Source: Escherichia phage ManiWeber_Bas99
Length of the DNA stretch: 64,000 nt
Sequence record: PQ850618.1
Reading direction: 5' to 3' (one strand)
Position 1 is the stretch's first letter, and every line of letters begins with the position of its first letter. The position numbers and the translations under genes are program-made. This document shows, piece after piece, positions 2,223 through 59,551 of the stretch. The notes beneath the pieces were generated by a model, which was given only the letters and a program-made list of their open reading frames with translations, ran no database searches and was not told the origin of the DNA.

Positions 2223-2505
2223 TTTTATACGTATAATGACGTATCATCCGTATCAAGTAAGTTGTTGTTTTCAAAAGAATCTTACGGATGATACGGATGA
2301 TACGCGTTGCCGCCGTACTATATAGGAATTCAAATAAATTAATTTAAAATTATATATCTAATTTAATTTTATTTTTTTATAAACTCTTATATGTGAAAAG
2401 TATCCGTATCATCCGTATCATCCGTATCACACCAGTGATAGCGCGGCTTATACACCGATACGGATAAAAATACGCCTCATTTTATCCGTATCATCCGTAT
2501 CACAC
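2223..2505. repeat. Iteron module A: inverted arrays of the 9-mer TCCGTATCA flanking an AT-rich core
   Basis: GTATCATCCGTATCA about 2241-2255; reverse copies about 2282-2304; about 70 bp of more than 85% AT at about 2325-2395; three tandem copies at about 2401-2430 and two at about 2482-2503. Confidence 0.7.
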
Positions 2506-39362: not shown

Positions 39363-40208
39363 TTATTCCGCTTGATCACCGTCTTCAGCATCGTCGTTGG
39401 ATTCAACATCGACAAACTCGATGTGACCCATCTCTTCCAGCTTGCTCAGGTAGGAGCGAACGGAAGCGCCAAACAGTTGATCTTTAACTTTTTCGCCCAG
39501 CTCATCGATAGACTGTGCCACACCAACTTCGCCTTCTTTGATCGCCGCCAGAACGCGTCCACGGGTGGAATGCTCTTGCGGCTGGCTCAGGCCGTTGCCA
39601 GTGTAGATGAAGTGAGTGGCTTTTGCACGACGCTGACCGTTTGCCTTTTTAGCAGCCTTACGTTCTGCGATGGCTTTGCGACGTTCTTCAGCTTCTTTCT
39701 TACGCTGTTCTTTCTGCTGTTCTGCAGCTTCTTTAGCCGCAATCTTAGCAGCTTCACGCTCTGCCTTGCGTTTCGCTTTAGCTTCTTCTTTGGCCTTTTC
39801 TTTTTCGGCCTTCGCTGCAGCACGGGCTTGATCACGCTCTGCTTTCTTGGCCGCAGCCTGCTCAGCTTTCAGGCGCTTGGCTTCTTCTTTAGCCTTTGCC
39901 TTTTCGATTTCTTTTGCTGCTTTAGCGGCTTCACGCTCTGCTTTCTTAGCAGCAGCCTTTTCTGCACGCTCTTTAGCTTTCTTAGCTGCTTCTTCAGCAC
40001 GCTTCTGAGCCTTCTCATCAGCAGCCTGCTTGCGTTTCAACGCAGCTTCTTCACGCTTGGCTTGTTTTTCCTGCTCACGCTTCTGGCGTTTTTCTTCGGC
40101 TTCTTTCTTTTTAGCCAGGCGTTTTTCTTCAGCCACGCGACGACGTTCTGCTGCGGCTGCTTGTTTTTCTTCTTTAGATAATACTTTGATTGCTTCGGCC
40201 ATATTCAC
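39363..40208 (-). CDS. K/E/A-rich charged helical protein with small C-terminal globular domain
   Basis: 281 aa; about 190 aa of (A/E/K/R)-only repeats consistent with a single long alpha helix or TolA/histone-H1-like tail. Confidence 0.5.
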   Translation of the reverse strand: MNMAEAIKVLSKEEKQAAAAERRRVAEEKRLAKKKEAEEKRQKREQEKQAKREEAALKRKQAADEKAQKRAEEAAKKAKERAEKAAAKKAEREAAKAAKEIEKAKAKEEAKRLKAEQAAAKKAERDQARAAAKAEKEKAKEEAKAKRKAEREAAKIAAKEAAEQQKEQRKKEAEERRKAIAERKAAKKANGQRRAKATHFIYTGNGLSQPQEHSTRGRVLAAIKEGEVGVAQSIDELGEKVKDQLFGASVRSYLSKLEEMGHIEFVDVESNDDAEDGDQAE

Positions 40209-40269
40209 AGTCCTTAAATAAATTAGTTTATTTTATATTCCCCGTTTGGGATAACTTAATTATGCCTTC

Positions 40270-42032: not shown

Positions 42033-43115
42033 ATGGCTAGTTTAAGAGAAGAAGCAAAAATAATCGAAGAGTTTTTAACAGAACTCCAAAGAGGCATTCC
42101 AGAAGATGAGCGCGTCATGACGGTGTTTGCGCCTGAAGCAACGGTGCAGACTGACGAGCGCGGCAAGAAGATTAACAGCAGCTTCTGGCCTAAGCCTTGG
42201 AAGTTGGGCAAGCCGCTCATGCAGCACCAAAACGGCTATGCCTGCATCAGTTCAATGCGTAAGTCTCCCAACCCGAAGACGGGTGAGATGCGATACTGGC
42301 GTACAGAGTCAGCCTTTGGTCACGGTATGGCGATGATGGTCGACGACATCGGTCACGGTAAAGGGTCCAAAGGCGATTTAGATTTGGAATTCTTTTTCGA
42401 GCGACTGAAGCCGACTGTCATTGTCGAGACGTCACCGAACAACCACCAGCTGTGGTACTTCTTTAAAGAACCAATTGACCATCTTATTCAGTTCAAAGCA
42501 TTCCTTGGGTCTTTCGTAAACATGGTACTCAAGAAGGGCGGCGACAACACGATTAAAGACGTAACGCGCGTGGGCCGTGTTCCTGGGTGCATCAACAACA
42601 AGCGCGTGACTCACGACGGCCCCTATAAATATGTCGATGAGAACGGCGACCCGTTCCGCTGCCGACTTGTCCATGCAGATTACTCCTTGCGCTACACCAT
42701 CGAAGACATTTGTCAGGCATTCGGCTTTCACGTTGTAATGCCGCAAAAGCGTGAGATTCAAATTGACGTCGATGAATACAAATACGATGCTGTTTGGTAT
42801 AAGATAGCCCAGCAGATTCTAGCGCGCAACAAGATGGGTGAAGGGTCTGATGGCGACGTTATCGAGAATATGTCAGGTAAGTGTCGCATAATCTGTCCTT
42901 GGGGTGAAGAGCACACCAACGGCGACCCGTATGGCGCTTACTTTCGCGGCCCTATCCCTGGTGCAGAACATGAATTTGTGTTCGGTTGCGCCCACGACTG
43001 TCACCGGAAAGGGGAAGGCAAGAAAGGTTGGACCGCTTTTGTTGAAGCAATCGTCATGCCTTATATTGAGAATCAACTTGACATGATAAATCGTCGTGCA
43101 GGTGGCATAAAATAG
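42033..43115 (+). CDS. Primase, archaeo-eukaryotic (AEP/PrimPol-like) type
   Basis: 360 aa; acidic MMVDDIGHG motif, ETSPNNHQLWYFF motif, C-terminal Cys/His cluster CPWGEEH...CAHDCH. Confidence 0.5.
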   Translation: MASLREEAKIIEEFLTELQRGIPEDERVMTVFAPEATVQTDERGKKINSSFWPKPWKLGKPLMQHQNGYACISSMRKSPNPKTGEMRYWRTESAFGHGMAMMVDDIGHGKGSKGDLDLEFFFERLKPTVIVETSPNNHQLWYFFKEPIDHLIQFKAFLGSFVNMVLKKGGDNTIKDVTRVGRVPGCINNKRVTHDGPYKYVDENGDPFRCRLVHADYSLRYTIEDICQAFGFHVVMPQKREIQIDVDEYKYDAVWYKIAQQILARNKMGEGSDGDVIENMSGKCRIICPWGEEHTNGDPYGAYFRGPIPGAEHEFVFGCAHDCHRKGEGKKGWTAFVEAIVMPYIENQLDMINRRAGGIK

Positions 43116-44425: not shown

Positions 44426-46096
44426 ATGTCAATTAATAATGACAATCTTCCAGAGGATACAGGTGATGAATTTGGTGCAATCTTTGACGAAATTCAAGAT
44501 GCAGGCGTTTCGGAAGAAATGCAGGCAGCAGAGCAGCAAGGCACCAGAGCTAAAATCAGCCTTCAACATAAAGCCGTTGAAAAAGATTCAGAGCGCATGG
44601 AATGCTACGGTGAAGAAGACTTGGTTGAAAGAGCACGCTTGCTCGCCTCACTTCAGGTAATCAAGTTCCCTCACTACAAGCCTACCAAAGATGACTTCGT
44701 TCTACAGGCAGACCGGACGAGTGACATGAACCGTTATGCGGTTTTCGACGCGTTGTTTGATAAGGGAAGTGGCATTGTTCCATTCCCTCACAAAGATACT
44801 TTTCGTGGGCGCTTAGTCGACCATCGCGGCGAAACATTCACTGACCGTACCTTGGAAGTCACAGAGATAGTTGCCGCTGTCGACGCAGCAGGGCTGTCCA
44901 ACCCAAACTCACGTCAGGTCGCTCAATCCTATAAGGAATGGGCCATGCGTTATCAGCGCGACGACCTGATGGACTTCTTCTACAAGAAGCTGCCTGAATG
45001 GGACGGTACTGCGCGCATCGAGAAATACCTTATCGAGCTATTCCGACCGTTCGATACAGAGTTAAACCGACGAATCGGTGTGTATTTTTGGCTATCGCTC
45101 TATAACCGCCTGACCAACCCTGGCTGTCAAGCGCCAATCTCCATCGCGCTCATCGGCGGCCAGAACGCAGGGAAGAGTTATTTTAGCAAGCTGCTTTGCG
45201 AAGCTATTATGAACGACCGCCACGCAACACCGATTCCGTTGAACTTAGCCGCGCAAAACTTCAACCCGTTCTTGCGCGCCATCACGGGTCGCTCCATTAT
45301 CGCGAACGTTGGCGAGATGACAGGCTTTAAAAAGGCTGACATCGAAAACATGAAAGCATTCCTGACTAAGACGGAAGACGACCTGGACTTCAAATTTGAA
45401 GATACACAGGTTAAACCACGCCAGTGGATTGCTATTATGGACGGCAACGAATACGCAGGCATGCAGCGTGATGACACGGGCAACCGTCGTGTGTATCCTA
45501 TCTTTGTTGGCCAACTTGCCGACAAGGACGGGCAGCCGAACTGGTCGAAAGACTTCCAAGCTGACCTTTCCACTTTGAAAGAAGACGTTTGGCAGTTGAT
45601 GGCTGAGTGCGCTGCGTGGATGGAGAAGCACGGCGAAGCAGGCTATAACGCGTTTGTTGGTGAAACATCTCGCATGCTTACTGAGTTCAGTAAAAACGAA
45701 ATGGAACGCGCTCGCGGCGTTATCCGTGATGAGATGGTTGACAACGACCTTGTTGAAGTCGTCATCACCGCGCCTTATGACCGACATCACAGCGGACGCT
45801 GGCACATCACCAGTGGTGCTATTGCTATGGGATTCAGAGCGAAGTGTGGCAAGTCGCCTTTCTCTCGTACCCTTGCGCCACACATGTCGAAGCTTGGTTT
45901 TGAGCCTGCAACCTATCGCAACCAGCGCGGTTACTTTACGCCGCTGATTAAGAATGAAGCAGGAGAATACATTTCTGATTTGATGACCATCTTAGCGTAT
46001 CTTATTCGCGATGAGTCTGACCCTGAAGATATTGAATTCTTGAAGAAGGTTATCGAGCGTAAACGTTCTTTGGGAAGAGATAAGGATGAATTCTGA
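44426..46096 (+). CDS. VirE-like / primase-associated P-loop NTPase
   Basis: 556 aa; Walker A LIGGQNAGKS; size and architecture resemble VirE/D5-type helicases. Confidence 0.5.
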   Translation: MSINNDNLPEDTGDEFGAIFDEIQDAGVSEEMQAAEQQGTRAKISLQHKAVEKDSERMECYGEEDLVERARLLASLQVIKFPHYKPTKDDFVLQADRTSDMNRYAVFDALFDKGSGIVPFPHKDTFRGRLVDHRGETFTDRTLEVTEIVAAVDAAGLSNPNSRQVAQSYKEWAMRYQRDDLMDFFYKKLPEWDGTARIEKYLIELFRPFDTELNRRIGVYFWLSLYNRLTNPGCQAPISIALIGGQNAGKSYFSKLLCEAIMNDRHATPIPLNLAAQNFNPFLRAITGRSIIANVGEMTGFKKADIENMKAFLTKTEDDLDFKFEDTQVKPRQWIAIMDGNEYAGMQRDDTGNRRVYPIFVGQLADKDGQPNWSKDFQADLSTLKEDVWQLMAECAAWMEKHGEAGYNAFVGETSRMLTEFSKNEMERARGVIRDEMVDNDLVEVVITAPYDRHHSGRWHITSGAIAMGFRAKCGKSPFSRTLAPHMSKLGFEPATYRNQRGYFTPLIKNEAGEYISDLMTILAYLIRDESDPEDIEFLKKVIERKRSLGRDKDEF

Positions 46097-52947: not shown

Positions 52948-53369
52948 TACAGCGTTACGACCTGACATATGACGTGGCATCAGACGATTTCGCCGTCACT
53001 CCCGTTCCAGAAAGTCATGAAGGACGTTTTGTTGCATATGAGGACTATGAATCACTACTCAAGCTTAATGAGTCGCTAACAAAAGAGATTGAGCAATACC
53101 GCGAGCGCATCAAAGCCGCTGAAGATGTTATCAAGCTTTTTAGCGAGGCTGTTGAGAAATACAAGGAGCGAAACGTACCGATTAAGGAGGAAGCGTGGAC
53201 CGTGTGGTTTGGTGGCGTGAATCCGGTGCCTGGGAAGATGGTTGAGTTTGAATTACTCAACGGTTATAAGTCAAAAGGTGCTGTTCCTTCGGATAGTTTG
53301 ACATGGGATAAAGTCACAAGCCCGACTGGTGCAAAGATTGTTGCTTATCGGGTCGTTAAGGAGGGGTGA
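52944..53369 (+). CDS. Hypothetical two-domain early protein
   Basis: 141 aa; C-terminal WTVWFGGVNPVPGKMV...IVAYRVVKEG module shared with 51562-52062. Confidence 0.35.
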   Translation: MIQRYDLTYDVASDDFAVTPVPESHEGRFVAYEDYESLLKLNESLTKEIEQYRERIKAAEDVIKLFSEAVEKYKERNVPIKEEAWTVWFGGVNPVPGKMVEFELLNGYKSKGAVPSDSLTWDKVTSPTGAKIVAYRVVKEG

Positions 53370-53818
53370 TGGGTAACAAGCTTATCGCCGCTGGTTGGGC
53401 CATACCGAAGTGGGCTCATCGTGCGCACTACTTTGATGAAGGAGAAGTGCAAAGCCTTTGCGGTCGCGCAACGTATTTCGGTGATGAGCGCGTCAGCGGC
53501 GATTACATTGACTCGCTTTTAGGTAAAGGTGATTGCAAGAAATGTCAGGATATATTAAGAGATATTCTGACGCAAAAAGGATTGCTTGAGCTTGATGAGT
53601 CGGAGGAAGTAATAGAGCTTAAGCTTGAAGCCAATCACCTTATTAATATGTTCAAGAATTATTACTTAACGAATATGCGCTCAAAGATGCGTGAGGAAGT
53701 AATAAAAGAGGTGCTCACTTACAATCCGTTAAGGATGAATAAAACTAAACTGAAGAAGTTTAATGCAATGGTAAGAAAGGAATTTAGACGGCTTGGAGTG
53801 AAGAATTTTATATTTTAA
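53366..53818 (+). CDS. Hypothetical early protein
   Basis: 150 aa; last gene of the + early operon. Confidence 0.3.
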   Translation: MMGNKLIAAGWAIPKWAHRAHYFDEGEVQSLCGRATYFGDERVSGDYIDSLLGKGDCKKCQDILRDILTQKGLLELDESEEVIELKLEANHLINMFKNYYLTNMRSKMREEVIKEVLTYNPLRMNKTKLKKFNAMVRKEFRRLGVKNFIF

Positions 53819-53833
53819 TTATGATTAATGTTA

Positions 53834-53860
53834 AGAGGGCCAATCGGCCCTTTTTATTTG
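53834..53860 (+). terminator. Rho-independent terminator ending the early operon
   Basis: AGGGCCAATCGGCCCTTTTTATTTG: 6-bp stem, 4-nt loop, T-run. Confidence 0.6.
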
Positions 53861-54349
53861 CCTGTGTAATGGGAGGCTTTTGTGGTTATTTACGATTCAA
53901 GGCTGTAATTTAAGAGAGCGAAAATATTATAATAATTTATCAAGATTATTGCATATTGTGGCAATCAACGTTTATACGTATTTATGACAGTTTAATCCAC
54001 TAAATAATACGGATAGAACAGTGAGGAAAATACAGCGGTGTATTTTAGTGTAAATATTGAATCAAAAATAAATAATTATGGTGCTATTATATACGCAGAT
54101 TGTTTGTAATTTATAGGATATTTTATCGTGGAGTATTGGCTAACGGTGCGTTAGCCGTGGGTCTTGGTGCTTGTGGTGTTGATGCTCAGAATTTTAATAA
54201 TGTTTTTAGTTTTAGTAATCGTAGTCAATGATGATACGTATAAGAAAATGAGAGTCACCCCTTCACAGGATATTGTACCGTGGCCCTGTGGCGCGCCGCG
54301 CCTGGGATTGCTGGTATACACTGGTGCTATTTTGCCGCGAAGGCAGTCA

Positions 54350-54685
54350 TTCATACGTATCATGACGTATCATTGGGCTATTGATTTATAAGGAAAAATA
54401 CGCTGATACGGATGATACGGATGCAAACATAATATATATAGAATTCCAGAAAATTAATTAACTCCATTTTGAATTAATTTAAATTAATTTTTTTCTACAT
54501 CCTCATACTTATACTAAACTTATATTTATACGTATTATCCGTAAGATATAAGTAAAAACAAAGACTTGCGGCAATACGGATGATACGTCATGATACGCTT
54601 CAACCAGCCAGCAGCGGCTAAGTCATTGATTTGCATAGCAAGCGGCGAAAGGGATGGATTTCTTTTATACGTATCAAACAGTACA
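54350..54685. repeat. Iteron module B: same repeat family and architecture as module A
   Basis: ACGTATCATGACGTATCAT about 54354-54373; reverse copies about 54404-54423 and 54574-54597; AT-rich core about 54424-54530; TTTTATACGTAT shared with module A. Confidence 0.7.
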
Positions 54686-54826
54686 CCACGCACCACGGTC
54701 CGTTATCCATTCAGCAATATGATTTGTGTACGTTTATAGCCATAATGAACATCAATCTGCACTTGAATATAATGTTCATCCATTGTATAATTCACACTAT
54801 TAATTTGCACTATGGGATTTTGCACT

Positions 54827-55300
54827 ATGAGTCAAGATTATGTAGCGATGCCTGAAGACTTTGAAGACCCGCGATTTGCAGAGCACAATCAGGCTTTATT
54901 CGATGAGTTCATTGACCTTGTTATTCAGGGCCATGACATGCGCGCAGCTTTTGCACTAGTATTTGGAATGGAAGTTGCAACGGATAACTACACTGGCCAG
55001 CGAATCCTTTGCACGCAACGCAATCCATACTACAAGATGCGCTTCAAAAAGCGTATGGAAGAGATGCCACTCAAGGATTTGTGGAGCGTAAAAGGTGCAA
55101 TTCACAATTTGGTTAAGCTTGTGCGTGATCCAGAAGTCGCAGCGTCAGCCAAGCTTAATGCTATTCGTGAACTGAATATCATCTACGGCATCACGATGAT
55201 TGATGAAAACGGCAATAGTAAAATGGGCCGTTCCATGGACGATTTCTACAAGGATTTTGGAGAGGCGGCCAAAGAAGGTGAGCAATTCTCCCGCCACTAG
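54827..55300 (+). CDS. Putative DNA-binding protein (possible terminase small subunit)
   Basis: ATG overlapping an 11-mer copy; about 157 aa; helix-turn-helix-like N-terminus; adjacent to iteron module B; assignment tentative. Confidence 0.3.
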   Translation: MSQDYVAMPEDFEDPRFAEHNQALFDEFIDLVIQGHDMRAAFALVFGMEVATDNYTGQRILCTQRNPYYKMRFKKRMEEMPLKDLWSVKGAIHNLVKLVRDPEVAASAKLNAIRELNIIYGITMIDENGNSKMGRSMDDFYKDFGEAAKEGEQFSRH

Positions 55301-55317
55301 CCAATTTGCACTATAAA

Positions 55318-55355
55318 ACGGCCCTAGAACACATCTTCTCCACTTCTAGGGCCAT
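55318..55355. other. Strong hairpin GGCCCTAGAA-(14)-TTCTAGGGCC
   Basis: Perfect 10-bp stem directly downstream of 54827-55300; weak T-tract on the minus strand. Confidence 0.4.
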
Positions 55356-55728
55356 CGGTAATACGACGGGGAAGGTTACAACCATAAACGCGTTAGAAAG
55401 TGTATTATTATAAGTCATCTTTTAGTCACTTTACGTAACAATTTACGACCTTCAGCCGTCCAATCGAACGACTCCACCAGCAGATTCGCACTATAACCTA
55501 AGATGATGCGCCCTTTCTCGTTATCGACCCGCCAACAAGTCTCGAATAGCATTCGATTTGCACTATTAACTATCGCCGCAACGCGCGTAGGGTAAACGCA
55601 ATTTGCACTATGGTCATAAAGGGATAAGGTGCGACCACTTCCGATGGACAACGTAGCGATGAGAATGAGCGTATTCATAAGCCACCAATTTGCACTATGA
55701 AAAGCGACCCCGAAGGGCCGCCATTCGA

Positions 55729-56355
55729 TTAGATAATCTGGAAGGTGTAGGACTTGTTGCCGAACTCGAAGTTCAAGCGCCCAGCTTCCTTAAGCTTCAT
55801 GCGGAAGCGAATGTGCTTGCTATCCGGTAATCCCAGCGCGGCGAACGCTACGCGGACCGATTTGAACTCGCCTACACCCTCGACCATGACACCGTTACGG
55901 GTAAGACGCTTTTGCGCCACTTCCTTATTATCCCAGCTTTTTGCAATACCTTCGCTATTCGAACGGCGATGGGAAGGAGTTCCATTTTGCACTACGCAAT
56001 TTGCACTATCGTTTAAACCGCTCTTAACGAAGGCTTCATATTCTTCGTCGGTCATCGCGTCGAGTTCTTCCTGGGTCGGCTCAGCCTTTTTAACGACCGC
56101 ACGCGCCTTATGCGTTTTTACATCGCTGGACACTTCCTCGCGCGACTTCGCGTCTGGGATGGGCGATTCGTTGGACGGCTCATCTAGCGCGTTTAAGGAC
56201 TCGATTAACGCGATGACGCGAGTCTCAGCGGTCCGGCGGTCCGAAAATTTCTTAATCGGCTTCGAACCGGAATTTGCATTATAAAATGCAACGAGGTCGG
56301 CGGTCTTAGTTGCGATAACGTCGCCGCTAGTCGAGAAACGATTTAAGCTAACCAT
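55729..56355 (-). CDS. Hypothetical protein in the CG-rich island
   Basis: 208 aa; strong RBS TAGGAG; codon and dinucleotide usage differ from the rest of the window; contains 11-mer copies. Confidence 0.4.
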   Translation of the reverse strand: MVSLNRFSTSGDVIATKTADLVAFYNANSGSKPIKKFSDRRTAETRVIALIESLNALDEPSNESPIPDAKSREEVSSDVKTHKARAVVKKAEPTQEELDAMTDEEYEAFVKSGLNDSANCVVQNGTPSHRRSNSEGIAKSWDNKEVAQKRLTRNGVMVEGVGEFKSVRVAFAALGLPDSKHIRFRMKLKEAGRLNFEFGNKSYTFQII

Positions 56356-56435
56356 AATAAACTCCTATTTGTTAGGGCGCTAGGCGCGAAAGAATTTTAT
56401 TAAAGCGCCGCGCACGACGCTCTAAAAATCCTCTC

Positions 56436-56720
56436 TTACGCTTCGACGAGGGAGAAGGTCTCAAATTCTTCTTCGCCCATAACGAGTAAGATATTACCGA
56501 TTTCGACCGCTTCGAAGAAATATCCGTTAACGTTTACTTCGAAGGCTTCGCGGTCCGATTCCGGTAGCGCCGCGTAAAGTTTAAAAGCCTCGGCGACCGT
56601 TACCCCACCCGCCTCGATAGTTTGGCCTACGTTCGCGGCGTAGACTTCGGATAAAATTTGTTTTACGCCGTAGTTCTCGACGATAGCGTTACGAATAGAA
56701 GAAACGTTAAGAATAGCCAT
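56436..56720 (-). CDS. Small acidic protein, island paralog A
   Basis: 94 aa; RBS AGGAG; paralog of 57355-57645 (NVNGYFFEAVEIGNILLV vs TINGFVYTITEIGGEYLAV). Confidence 0.45.
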   Translation of the reverse strand: MAILNVSSIRNAIVENYGVKQILSEVYAANVGQTIEAGGVTVAEAFKLYAALPESDREAFEVNVNGYFFEAVEIGNILLVMGEEEFETFSLVEA

Positions 56721-56744
56721 TTTAAACTCCTAGTTGGGAGAGGC

Positions 56745-56818
56745 GTTAACGACCTATTCGTTAACTCATCCCGTCCCGATATGAGTACATTATAATATAG
56801 TGTAGAAAAAAGTAAAGC
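56745..56818 (-). promoter_or_regulatory. Promoter and structured leader of paralog A (minus strand)
   Basis: Minus-strand -35 TTTACT (plus about 56811-56816), -10 TATAAT (plus about 56789-56794); leader hairpin TTAACGA-ATAGG-TCGTTAA (plus about 56746-56764). Confidence 0.5.
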
Positions 56819-56858
56819 ACTTTTTCGATAAAAATGCGATAAATTATTTTATCTTTTT

Positions 56859-56890
56859 TCTTTACTTCTTCGTACACTCGCGTATACTTG
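56859..56890 (+). promoter_or_regulatory. Promoter of paralog B
   Basis: CTTTACTTCTTCGTACACT block: -35 TTTACT, 16-bp spacer, -10 TATACT; back to back with the paralog A promoter. Confidence 0.45.
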
Positions 56891-56944
56891 TTTATATCGA
56901 GACGGGCGATGGCCCTTTCTTCTACTAGCATCGGGAGCTTTATT

Positions 56945-57247
56945 ATGACTACTTTAATCTCTTCCATCCTTACTTACGACGAAGACCGCTTAACCGTTCG
57001 CTCTCTTATCGCCGCCGTTAACGCGGAACTAGAATCTAGCGCCATTAAGGTCCGCGCGGTCGCCTTCATCGGCCTTTCCTTCGACGATATGAAGTATGCC
57101 GAACGTAGCGCCATCCGCTTCGCGAAGACCGACGACGAAGCCGTTACCCTTATCGAGACGGTTACGCCGCGCGGCGAAGCGTTAATTATCGTCGAGTATA
57201 TCGACGTAGAAGGCGATAAATCTTATAAACATTTTATCGCAGAATAA
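56945..57247 (+). CDS. Small acidic protein, island paralog B (distant)
   Basis: Internal ATG after GGGAG; about 100 aa; weaker similarity to A and C. Confidence 0.4.
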   Translation: MTTLISSILTYDEDRLTVRSLIAAVNAELESSAIKVRAVAFIGLSFDDMKYAERSAIRFAKTDDEAVTLIETVTPRGEALIIVEYIDVEGDKSYKHFIAE

Positions 57248-57256
57248 CGAAAAAGT

Positions 57257-57331
57257 GCTTTACTTCTTCGTACACTAAGACTATAATGTTTTATATCGAG
57301 AGGGGATGAGGTAGCGAATAGGTCGCTGCCC
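57257..57331 (+). promoter_or_regulatory. Promoter and structured leader of paralog C
   Basis: -35 TTTACT (about 57259-57264), 17-bp spacer, -10 TATAAT (about 57282-57287); leader hairpin GTAGCGA-ATAGG-TCGCTGC (about 57311-57329); about 80% identical to the paralog A leader. Confidence 0.5.
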
Positions 57332-57354
57332 TCCCGACCAACTAGGAGATTATT

Positions 57355-57645
57355 ATGATTACTTTAGCCGCTATCCGTTCCGCTCGCGTCGAGACTTCCG
57401 AAAACTCTAACGTATTTGGCGAAACCTTAGAGAGCGTTTATCTCTCTAACGTAGACGCAACTATCGAATCCATTTATGAGCCGATCAACTTCCTCGACCT
57501 TTACAAGTATCGCGATGAGGACATCGTGTCTTGCCGCGTAACGATCAACGGCTTCGTCTATACGATTACCGAAATCGGCGGCGAATATCTCGCGGTCCCG
57601 CAACTCGGCGGCGAAGTAACTTATTTTAAAATCGTCTCCTTATAA
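57355..57645 (+). CDS. Small acidic protein, island paralog C
   Basis: 96 aa; RBS AGGAG; paralog of 56436-56720. Confidence 0.45.
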   Translation: MITLAAIRSARVETSENSNVFGETLESVYLSNVDATIESIYEPINFLDLYKYRDEDIVSCRVTINGFVYTITEIGGEYLAVPQLGGEVTYFKIVSL

Positions 57646-57663
57646 TACCCTTCCGTTACTAAT

Positions 57664-57692
57664 AGGCCGCGCTTAGTCGCGGCTTTTCTTCG
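57664..57692 (+). terminator. Rho-independent terminator after paralog C
   Basis: GGCCGCGCTTAGTCGCGGCTTTTCTT: GC stem plus T-run. Confidence 0.55.
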
Positions 57693-57810
57693 CCCCTATC
57701 TCGGTGCGCTCCTACGCGAAAACTCCTTTATCCTTACCTTCGTCGTCGCATAATCTTCGTCGAGATGCTCCTTAGTTCGCATAACAGGTATTACGTTAAA
57801 TGGAGAACAT

Positions 57811-58095
57811 CGCGTAAGTCGTTGTTTTATATAGACACCTATATCGGACCGTTAGCGAGGGTCGCGTAAGTCGTTGTTTTATAAAGGCGCAAAACTTTCC
57901 CTTCGTTCCGAACTAAAACGAGGAATATGCCGACCCTTCGCCCGAAAATAGTACGCATGCGATATTACCGACATCTAGAATAATCCCTCCCGATATTATT
58001 ACGCGCTCAATCATTAGCTTTCGAATCATTATGCTGCATACTATTATGCGCCAAATCATTAGCCTTCGAATTGTAACGCTGGAAACTGTAACGTC
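57811..58095. repeat. Noncoding stretch dense in direct repeats
   Basis: 21-bp CGCGTAAGTCGTTGTTTTATA twice (about 57811-57831 and 57863-57883, 52 bp apart); AATCATTAGC(T/C)TTCGAAT twice (about 58008-58026 and 58053-58071); TGTAACG twice; no convincing ORF. Confidence 0.6.
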
Positions 58096-58351
58096 GATTG
58101 ATTATTGCGTTCGTGTGGTTTTTAGGACATGGGTCTTTTGGTGCGTTTTGCTACTTGATGGAATTTGCAGTACACTAATCAAAATACGACACATTTGGTC
58201 CACTAACTTTTCAAAGAAAAAGTCCTAGACAGTACCGTACTATTTTGTACCCACAGGAAATTTGCCGTACACTCCTGCGCGGCAGGCAAAAATAAAGGGC
58301 CGCACTAAGCGACCCACAACCCACGATTCACGGTTAAATCAGCAACACCCA

Positions 58352-59155: not shown

Positions 59156-59551
59156 TCAATATTTTAATAAGAAAGCACCCAACCAACTTTCCTCAATCTC
59201 GCGGCCAGTAGCCACACGGTCGGTCTTGGCTATGGGTCTGGATTCGCCGCAGGGCAATCCGTATTGTAGTTGTGTACTATTGCCAATTCTCACCATGACC
59301 TTTCCATCAGGGTCGATATAAGCGCGACAACCCATGATTTCGAGTCGTTGTAGACACTGGCGAATCGTTTTCAGCCTTTCACCGGACCGGATTGAGCGCG
59401 GTCGCGACCGCTGACCGTTCTTGTTCACTGTCCGCTTAACGACCGGAATATCATTGCTGCGCTGCGACTTGGGTCGATAATAGGCTTCTTCGCCAGGAGT
59501 CGCACCTGGCGTCAATTCGCGCTTAAGCGCCTTTTCAATATCGATGATCAT
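59156..59551 (-). CDS. Hypothetical basic protein
   Basis: 131 aa ORF. Confidence 0.3.
   Translation of the reverse strand: MIIDIEKALKRELTPGATPGEEAYYRPKSQRSNDIPVVKRTVNKNGQRSRPRSIRSGERLKTIRQCLQRLEIMGCRAYIDPDGKVMVRIGNSTQLQYGLPCGESRPIAKTDRVATGREIEESWLGAFLLKY

What the first reader, a model, noticed from the sequence alone, without database searches (positions are those of the whole stretch)
54350..54685. Iteron module B: second copy of the same repeat family, next to a putative DNA-binding/TerS-like gene
This module has the same core repeat (CGTATCAT and its complement) in inverted arrays around a 100-bp AT-rich stretch, and shares TTTTATACGTAT with module A. It lies about 52 kb from module A, immediately after the early-operon terminator and upstream of the 54827 gene. 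Two such modules could be a pair of origins, or an origin plus a packaging site. The proximity to a possible small terminase subunit favours the packaging-site reading for this copy.
Basis: partly seen in the sequence, partly recalled or inferred. Interest (0 to 1): 0.6.

Follow-up and report, generated by a model that had tools for sequence, protein, structure and literature searches.

The report
Phage genome end inside origin-like repeats
This repeat module is where the packaged chromosome of an E. coli Wifcevirus phage begins, right next to its small terminase gene, and it is built like a replication origin that the phage carries in two copies.

Summary
The 9-bp unit NCGTATCAT is strongly over-represented and clusters only at 2229-2503 (module A) and 54231-54677 (module B). 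In both modules nested inverted arrays flank the two least stable AT-rich stretches of the 64 kb.

The window is a Wifcevirus, 98% identical to Bas98. Relatives whose ends were read from sequencing data (WFC/WFH, Mansfield) open their records at the base matching window 54466; SP13 and the more distant Kyle do too, by methods I did not see. That base lies in module B's AT-rich core and starts a 3,673-bp direct terminal repeat (54466-58138).

The gene at 54827 is a small terminase (E=7e-34 to the solved E217 TerS). The packaging-site reading is therefore supported.

The repeats themselves are probably origin iterons rather than the cutting signal:
- Module A has the same arrays, yet no record places a genome end there.
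- The phage encodes a SaPI-Rep-like VapE helicase with a variable C-terminal winged-helix domain.
- The iteron / AT-core / iteron layout recurs in Pbunavirus, Kylevirus, metagenomic relatives and integrated elements, each with its own iteron sequence.

Best reading: a composite origin-plus-packaging module. This is a new variant of known kinds and is experimentally testable.

The parts
53837..53862 (+). Rho-independent terminator ending the long rightward operon of small genes
   Evidence: GGGCC-AATC-GGCCC hairpin followed by TTTTTATTT, read directly. WFH annotates a terminator at the homologous place. The consensus scan did not flag it.
54293..54305 (+). GC box GCGCCGCGCCTGG, present in module B and absent from module A
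   Evidence: Only exact match to GCGCCGNNNCTGG in the 64 kb. Present in 1-2 copies left of the end in all Wifcevirus lineages fetched, and as an inverted pair flanking the end in Serratia phage MyoSmar.
54355..54373 (+). Outer-left iteron pair (ACGTATCAT G ACGTATCAT)
   Evidence: arm of inverted repeat I1.
54397..54422 (-). Inner-left iteron array (CCGTATCAT, CCGTATCAG and one degenerate unit)
   Evidence: The pair at -63/-54 from the end is kept in all lineages although the surrounding sequence differs.
54425..54529 (.). AT-rich core with the palindrome AATTAATTTAAATTAATT; candidate unwinding element
   Evidence: 85% AT. Second least stable 80-mer of the window: -81.4 against a mean of -110.5 (sd 7) in nearest-neighbour energy units. 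Palindrome I18.
54456..54470 (+). Cut-site motif AATTAACTCC|ATTTT; the left genome end falls between 54465 and 54466
   Evidence: Invariant in 8 Wifcevirus genomes and in the metagenomic relative L022. Unique in the window. The WFH record and the Mansfield record (query position 267) start at the base matching 54466; WFC and SP13 place terS at 361-834, consistent with the same start.
54530..54546 (+). Inner-right iterons (ACGTATTAT, CCGTAAGAT)
   Evidence: arm of I4.
54574..54598 (-). Outer-right iteron array (three units)
   Evidence: arm of I1.
54568..54646 (+). Three GCGGC boxes (54568, 54614, 54642), mirrored by GCCGC at 54295 and 54334
   Evidence: across 11 modules of 9 lineages, 57 of 59 boxes follow the rule GCCGC on the left, GCGGC on the right.
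54669..54677 (+). Far-right single iteron ACGTATCAA
54763..54791 (+). Sigma-70-like promoter TTGAAT-17-TATAAT in front of terS
   Evidence: consensus match only.
54827..55300 (+). terS, small terminase subunit (an in-frame ATG also lies at 54812)
   Evidence: phmmer E=7e-34 to PDB 7UXE, the E217 small terminase. phrog_4783. Annotated as TerS in Mansfield.
54466..58138 (+). Direct terminal repeat, inferred by homology (3,673 bp)
   Evidence: The WFH right end ...GGGCATGGGTCTTT maps to 58130-58138. The length equals Mansfield's DTR.
2229..2503 (.). Module A, a paralog of module B upstream of the head maturation protease gene
   Evidence: Same layout of arrays around a 90% AT core at 2319-2398. 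It shares 46 8-mers with module B against 14.8 in shuffles, maximum 33.
44426..46096 (+). VapE-like SF3 helicase, the candidate iteron-binding initiator
   Evidence: PF05272 at 2.6e-28. PDB 7PDS, the SaPI1 Rep1-DNA complex, at 7e-11. C-terminal region variable among 50 homologs. Model with pLDDT 90 shows a winged-helix fold.
42033..43115 (+). RepB-type DNA primase
   Evidence: PF16793 at 4.5e-36.
54806..56009 (+). Nine same-strand copies of AATTTGCACTAT (core TGCACTA) just inside the DTR; a possible further end-proximal signal
   Evidence: These nine lie in a 1.2-kb stretch; the whole window holds only five other TGCACTA matches on either strand. They lie in different reading frames. The cluster is conserved in Mansfield, L022, L023 and Kyle.

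Best explanation
Module B is a composite element.

(1) Shown by homology. It contains the left physical end of the virion chromosome. The cut falls between 54465 and 54466, in the AT-rich core, 361 bp upstream of terS. This starts a 3,673-bp direct terminal repeat that ends at 58138. Module B is therefore the packaging-initiation and end-forming site.

(2) Inferred. The CGTATCAT arrays are not the cutting signal. They are iterons of a replication origin of the SaPI type. The phage's VapE/Rep-like SF3 helicase would bind them through its variable C-terminal winged-helix domain on both sides of the AT-rich core, melt the core and load itself. The RepB-type primase would then prime. Module A would be a second origin, or an origin-enhancing site, bound by the same protein.

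(3) Inferred. Terminase (a TerS ring plus TerL) cuts only in module B because of elements that module A lacks. These are the invariant AATTAACTCC|ATTTT sequence and the GC box at 54293. The AATTTGCACTAT cluster that starts at terS may also contribute.

One speculative step: packaging then runs rightward through terS.

A second speculative step: firing of this origin toward the repeat could supply the second copy of the terminal repeat that every packaged genome needs.
For: Genome end.
- The WFH and Mansfield records start at the base matching window 54466. WFC, SP13 and Mansfield all place terS at 361-834 of the record.
- Methods: read pile-ups for WFC/WFH; PhageTerm for Mansfield.
- The cut-site motif is invariant in 8 genomes, while the sequence to its left diverges between lineages.
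- Kyle's record also starts inside its own AT-rich core.
- In Pbunavirus JG024, long reads start at 59,376, and I estimate this as about 600 bp upstream of terS from records with the same layout. The PS44 record begins about 616 bp upstream of its terS.

TerS: E=7e-34 to 7UXE.

Origin-like chassis.
- Dyad-symmetric arrays.
- The two cores are the first and second least stable 80-mers of the 64 kb.
- Modules A and B are the only two clusters of the motif. They rank second and third among self-repetitive 400-bp windows; the first is a coding repeat.

Initiator.
- The helicase is homologous to SaPI1 Rep1.
- PMC9371898 describes SaPI origins as 6-12 iterons directly downstream of rep, with an AT-rich centre and at least two iterons per side pointing in opposite directions, read by a C-terminal winged helix.
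- The C-terminal ~130 residues of the helicase are variable.

Comparative.
- Kyle and Pbunavirus also have two paralogous modules, one upstream of terS and one upstream of the head protease.
- Within each genus A and B share words above every shuffle (46, 59 and 44 shared 8-mers against shuffle maxima of 33, 44 and 24). Cross-genus pairs stay at background.
- Iterons differ by lineage: CGTATCAT, ATCCGCAAGA, ATATCCGAA/GGTTATT, TTTCCGA/GGTAATTTGG, CCTTAAGTG, GTAACTC. The layout is kept.
- The helicase gene lies just upstream of the terS-proximal intergenic region in PB1, MyoSmar, Maja and two integrated elements; in L023 one gene intervenes.
Against: - No end data exist for this exact phage. The end position is transferred from relatives 90-98% identical.
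- No binding or replication experiment exists for any member.
- In this window the helicase gene is 8.3 kb from module B, not adjacent.
- The module stays next to terS in every lineage. This equally fits TerS as the binder of the arrays.
- TerS sites of P1, SPP1 and lambda are also short repeats flanking a cut (my own knowledge).
- Module A contains the GCGGC boxes too, so those boxes cannot explain why only B is cut.
- Whether module A is never cut is not established. The records and announcements I read report only one pair of ends, and minor ends were not examined.
Confidence: 0.55

Rival explanations
1. Packaging site only. The CGTATCAT arrays are docking sites for the TerS ring on both sides of the cut, as in the P1 pac site or SPP1 pacL/pacR. 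Module A is a second TerS site that is bound but not cut, for example to sense concatemers or to regulate head genes.
For: The cut lies at the centre of the arrays and terS is the next gene in every lineage examined. Each module has about 10-11 units, close to the ten subunits of the E217 TerS. Module A sits in the head-assembly gene cluster in three genera.
Against: Module A has the full arrays, yet no record places an end there. Inverted arrays do not suit wrapping around a ring of identically oriented subunits. E217 TerS showed no appreciable DNA binding in vitro according to review PMC9611059. Extreme AT-richness of both cores is not required for a pac site. The phage needs an origin, and no other candidate repeat cluster exists in the 64 kb.
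Confidence: 0.25
2. Transcriptional control regions. The arrays are operators or enhancer-like sites for a phage regulator that times the near-consensus sigma-70 promoters of terS and of the protease-scaffold-capsid operon.
For: Each module is followed, 58-86 bp after its last unit, by a 10-of-12 promoter match: TTGAAT-17-TATAAT at 54763 and TTGCCT-17-TATAAT at 2560. Both downstream genes have late functions. By eye, the module A equivalents of Kyle and PS44 are also followed by promoter-like sequences.
Against: The arrays span about 300 bp with dyad symmetry around an AT core that holds no promoter match. Other late operons have no such module. This reading does not explain the genome end at the centre. 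No regulator gene was identified.
Confidence: 0.08
3. Origin only. The end mapped in relatives is unrelated to the module, or does not apply to this phage.
For: The end is inferred by homology only. Pbunavirus relatives have been reported as circularly permuted headful packagers.
Against: Two laboratories using two methods give the same base in WFC/WFH and Mansfield, and SP13 starts there as well. The motif at that base is identical in the window.
Confidence: 0.05

Closest known systems
SaPI replication origins with Rep self-loading helicases (PMC9371898)
   Same: A homologous SF3 helicase (PDB 7PDS, E=7e-11). Six to twelve short iterons split by an AT-rich centre, with opposed orientation on the two sides. 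A variable C-terminal winged-helix domain. In several relatives the module lies directly downstream of the helicase gene.
   Different: Here the element is in a virulent 68-kb myovirus. It is present in two copies, lies 8.3 kb from the helicase gene in this genus, has nested inward and outward arrays plus GCGGC boxes, and contains the terminase cut site.
P1 pac site and SPP1 pacL-pacC-pacR (own knowledge, not tested here)
   Same: Short repeated motifs on both sides of a central terminase cut, close to the terminase genes.
   Different: Those phages package by headful and give permuted genomes. P1 uses Dam-methylated TGATCA hexamers. Here the ends are fixed, with a 3.7-kb direct terminal repeat, and the repeats recur at a site where no end is recorded.
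Two-site origin systems: SPP1 oriL/oriR and P4 ori/crr (own knowledge)
   Same: One initiator binds the same boxes at two distant places in the genome, one of them among late genes.
   Different: No homology was tested. Neither of those sites is a packaging cut site.
Putative pac site of Pbunavirus JG024 (PMC10913387)
   Same: A homologous TerS, and an end-forming site that I estimate lies about 600 bp upstream of terS in the homologous non-coding region.
   Different: JG024 is reported as a headful packager with a permuted genome. That paper does not, in the passages I read, describe repeats or a second module.
T7 concatemer junction with secondary origins next to the terminal repeat (own knowledge)
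   Same: Origin-like elements sit beside a direct terminal repeat and are implicated in end formation.
   Different: The T7 repeat is 160 bp, its origins are promoter-driven, and there are no iterons.

Membership tests
Phage packaging-initiation / genome-end site | A virion DNA end maps inside the element | tested here: met
   By homology only. The WFH and Mansfield records start at the base matching 54466, and WFC and SP13 agree by gene coordinates. Methods are given.
Phage packaging-initiation / genome-end site | Adjacent small terminase gene | tested here: met
   54827-55300 against 7UXE, E=7e-34.
Phage packaging-initiation / genome-end site | Terminase binds and cuts the site | not testable with these tools
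   Needs a gel-shift, footprint or plasmid transduction assay.
SaPI-type iteron origin | A Rep-like self-loading SF3 helicase is encoded | tested here: met
   PF05272 at 2.6e-28; 7PDS at 7e-11.
SaPI-type iteron origin | C-terminal winged-helix domain that carries the specificity | tested here: inconclusive
SaPI-type iteron origin | 6-12 short iterons around an AT-rich centre, at least two per side in opposite directions | tested here: met
   About 10 units in module B and 11 in module A, with opposed arrays and cores of 85-90% AT.
SaPI-type iteron origin | Origin immediately downstream of the rep gene | tested here: not met
   8.3 kb apart in this window. It is met in PB1, MyoSmar, Maja, L024 and L025, and nearly met in L023.
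SaPI-type iteron origin | Replication starts there | not testable with these tools
   Needs marker-frequency analysis or 2D gels.
P1-type pac site | TGATCA/G hexamers under Dam control | tested here: not met
   The unit is NCGTATCAT and contains no GATC.
Lambda-type cos site | Cohesive single-stranded ends | tested here: not met
   Relatives carry a 3.7-kb direct terminal repeat.
DnaA-dependent origin | DnaA boxes TTATCCACA | tested here: not met
   The nearest sequence, TTATCCGTA, differs in the critical CACA part. The motif also changes between phages of related hosts.

The most novel reading that the evidence does not exclude
The terminase cut site lies inside the unwinding element of a Rep-type origin. 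Origin firing and genome-end formation, including duplication of the 3.7-kb terminal repeat, would then be mechanically coupled. A helicase / iteron module / terS cassette of this kind, with a second paralogous module in the head gene cluster, would be an ancient unit shared by PB1-like myoviruses and integrated elements of Burkholderiales.
Probability: 0.3. Interest if true: 0.7.

Novelty: new variant of a known kind. Interest (0 to 1): 0.55.

Why it matters
Wifceviruses and their Pbunavirus relatives are used or proposed for phage therapy and for genome rebooting. Yet I found no description of their origin or their terminase recognition site in the literature I could search, and the solved E217 TerS did not bind DNA in vitro.

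This analysis names concrete DNA targets that can be tested directly with purified TerS and helicase:
- the lineage-specific iterons;
- the oriented GCGGC boxes;
- a GC box and cut motif found only in module B;
- an oriented AATTTGCACTAT cluster.

It also explains where to open or avoid editing these genomes. And it raises a testable link between origin firing and formation of long terminal repeats, whose mechanism is, to my knowledge, still poorly understood.

Tried and rejected
- Rfam scan of 53700-54900: only one chance-level hit, E 0.25, so no known RNA family.
- Promoter scan: no sigma-70 match inside the AT core.
- Host factor sites by eye: no DnaA box and no IHF consensus.
- Chi: the reverse complement CCACCAGC clusters near the left end in Kyle, L023 and MyoSmar, but the window has a single copy in the repeat, at 55474.
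- EcoKI site inside the TGCACTA motif: checked by eye on two copies, not present.
- Homolog search with only the helicase C-terminal fragment: no hits.
- Single-sequence structure model of that fragment: unusable, pLDDT 42. Redone with an alignment.
- Foldseek against PDB: nothing significant.
- E217 terminase paper (PMC10026623): not held.
- Literature search for a PB1-like origin: nothing found.
- GC skew follows gene orientation and cannot locate an origin.
- PS44's apparent second TerS match was not resolved.
- Small ORFs called across the module (54164-54391, 54535-54696 on the minus strand, 54590-54739; annotated in Bas98 and Mansfield) look spurious. The left one is not conserved between lineages. 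I did not test this formally.

Full report
**Identity of the window.** The region 53000-56500 is 98% identical to Escherichia phage HermannAdler_Bas98 and 90-97% identical to 27 other phage records. All of them are Wifcevirus myoviruses of E. coli or Shigella. These are distant relatives of the Pseudomonas Pbunavirus group.

**The observation.**
- CGTATCAT occurs 14 times against 1.58 expected, and 12 of the 14 lie in two clusters.
- The unit is a 9-mer, NCGTATCAT, repeated with a period of 9-10 bp.
- A weight matrix built from these same units finds 11 hits at 2229-2503 (module A) and 10 at 54004-54677 (module B). The other 14 hits are scattered singly across the window.
- In module B two nested inverted repeats share a centre near 54476. 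Arms 54356-54373 and 54580-54597 are 100% complementary. Arms 54407-54422 and 54528-54543 are 88% complementary.
- By my reading, module A has the same plan, centred near 2355.
- The two cores are the first and second most AT-rich and least stable 60-, 80- and 100-bp stretches of the 64 kb. They lie more than 4 sd from the mean.
One exception: the terminator of the upstream operon is about 490 bp away.

**What sits there.**
- WFC and WFH are deposited as linear records with a terminal repeat of about 3.7 kb. Their ends were set where most reads stopped abruptly.
- WFH base 1 is ATTTTGAATTAATTTAAATT, which is window 54466.
[quoted passage not shown] It starts at the same base. SP13 starts at the same place by gene coordinates.
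- The right end of the WFH repeat maps to window 58138, so the repeat is 54466-58138, or 3,673 bp.
- An alignment of eight genomes shows diverged sequence left of the end and highly conserved sequence right of it. AATTAACTCC|ATTTT is invariant at the junction, the iteron pair at -63/-54 is conserved, and so is a GC box, GCGCCGNNNCTGG.
- That GC box is unique in the window and absent from module A. In Serratia phage MyoSmar it flanks the end as an inverted pair.

**The neighbouring gene.** ORF 54827-55300 matches the small terminase of Pbunavirus E217 (PDB 7UXE) at E=7e-34 over nearly its whole length. Pfam has no model for it. Module B is therefore the end-forming, packaging-initiation region next to terS.

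**Why the repeats are probably not the cutting signal.**
- Module A carries the full set of arrays and GCGGC boxes, but it lacks the cut motif and the GC box. No record places an end there.
- The two-module arrangement is old. Pantoea phage Kyle and Pbunavirus PS44/PB1 each have one module upstream of terS and a paralog in a gap of about 515 bp upstream of the head maturation protease.
- Within each genus the two modules share far more 8-mers than any shuffle. Cross-genus pairs are at background. The two copies therefore co-evolve with a lineage-specific binding protein.
- Kyle's record also starts in its own AT core. PS44's starts about 45 bp left of its AT-rich stretch.
- Metagenomic relatives keep the layout with other units. 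L022 has ACGTATCA and the same cut motif. L023 has ATCCGCAAGA.

**A candidate binder.**
- The phage encodes a RepB-type primase (42033-43115) and a VapE-like SF3 helicase (44426-46096).
- The helicase matches PDB 7PDS, the SaPI1 Rep1-DNA complex.
- SaPI Reps are initiator-helicases. Their C-terminal winged helix reads 6-12 iterons arranged around an AT-rich centre with opposed orientation, directly downstream of rep.
- Here the helicase core is highly conserved and the last ~130 residues are variable.
- In PB1, MyoSmar and Maja the helicase gene lies just upstream of the terS-proximal intergenic region.
- Integrated elements of Cupriavidus and Caballeronia carry helicase, a 640-660 bp gap, and then a gene of TerS size. 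The Cupriavidus one is 38% identical to the window's TerS (E=8e-33); the Caballeronia one was not compared. The gaps hold dyad arrays of their own units, CCTTAAGTG and GTAACTC.
- GCGGC boxes are a further shared element. In 11 modules, 57 of 59 follow the rule GCCGC left, GCGGC right.

**Model.**
- Shown (by homology): the chromosome end and terS.
- Inferred: the 9-mers are origin iterons for the helicase in both modules, and the AT core is the unwinding element.
- Inferred: terminase cuts only in module B because of elements that module A lacks.
- In the virion, the complete module B sits once, at the junction with the right-hand repeat. The left end carries only its right half.
- Speculative: origin firing toward the repeat may supply the second repeat copy needed at packaging.

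**Rivals.** The arrays could be TerS docking sites (plausible; 0.25). They could be operators for the promoters of terS and the head operon (0.08). Or the end may not apply to this phage (0.05). No tool here can separate TerS from helicase binding.

**Comparison and novelty.** The end position and the TerS annotation are already in GenBank records of relatives. I found no description of the following in the papers searched: the dyad iteron architecture, its paralog, its conservation with drifting iterons across several genera and integrated elements, or the position of the cut inside an origin-like core. I rate it a new variant of known kinds: an iteron origin plus a pac site.

Noticed in passing
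window 54806-56009: AATTTGCACTAT (core TGCACTA) occurs nine times, all on the + strand. The nine lie in a 1.2-kb stretch just inside the terminal repeat; the whole window holds only five other TGCACTA matches on either strand. They cross terS and two minus-strand genes in different reading frames, so selection acts at the DNA or RNA level. The same oriented cluster is present in Mansfield (9), L022 (8), L023 (10) and Kyle (6), whose iterons differ. It is absent from PS44 and MyoSmar. It could be a TerS recognition array or another end-proximal signal.
   Followed up: partly
L017 1-2000 (Kyle), L023 13000-15000, L011 1559-3559 (MyoSmar): The reverse complement of Chi (CCACCAGC) is clustered in one orientation within 2 kb of the left end: 9, 6 and 4 copies. 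By my reasoning this is the orientation that RecBCD would recognise when entering at that end. The window has only one copy there, at 55474.
   Followed up: partly
window 57810-58138: The right boundary of the terminal repeat (58138) is preceded by its own repeats: a 25-nt pair at 57810 and 57862 (96% identical) and a 45-nt tandem pair at 57993-58082 (78%). It is followed by two copies of TTTGC(A/C)GTACACT at about 58166 and 58262. These may be the right-end recognition signal.
   Followed up: partly
window 2229-2503 and equivalents L017 17570-18000, L016 1900-2290: Module A lies in a conserved gap of 413-515 bp upstream of the head maturation protease gene in three genera. Its function at that position is unexplained.
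   Followed up: partly
window 46040-46096 (helicase C-terminus): The VapE-like helicase ends in an acidic tail with a terminal Phe (...DKDEF). The final G/x-F is nearly invariant in 50 homologs. This recalls the polymerase-binding tails of T7 gp4 and gp2.5 and of SSB (own knowledge).
   Followed up: no
L024 6001-8854, L025 6001-8859: A helicase / iteron module / TerS-size gene cassette occurs next to integrase genes in Cupriavidus and Caballeronia chromosomes. These are either prophages or satellite-like elements.
   Followed up: partly
window 39600-40250: This is the most self-repetitive 400 bp of the window. It is a coding low-complexity repeat in a minus-strand gene and is unrelated to the modules.
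   Followed up: partly
window 54164-54739: Small ORFs annotated across the module in Bas98 and Mansfield overlap iterons and the genome end. They are probably not genes.
   Followed up: partly
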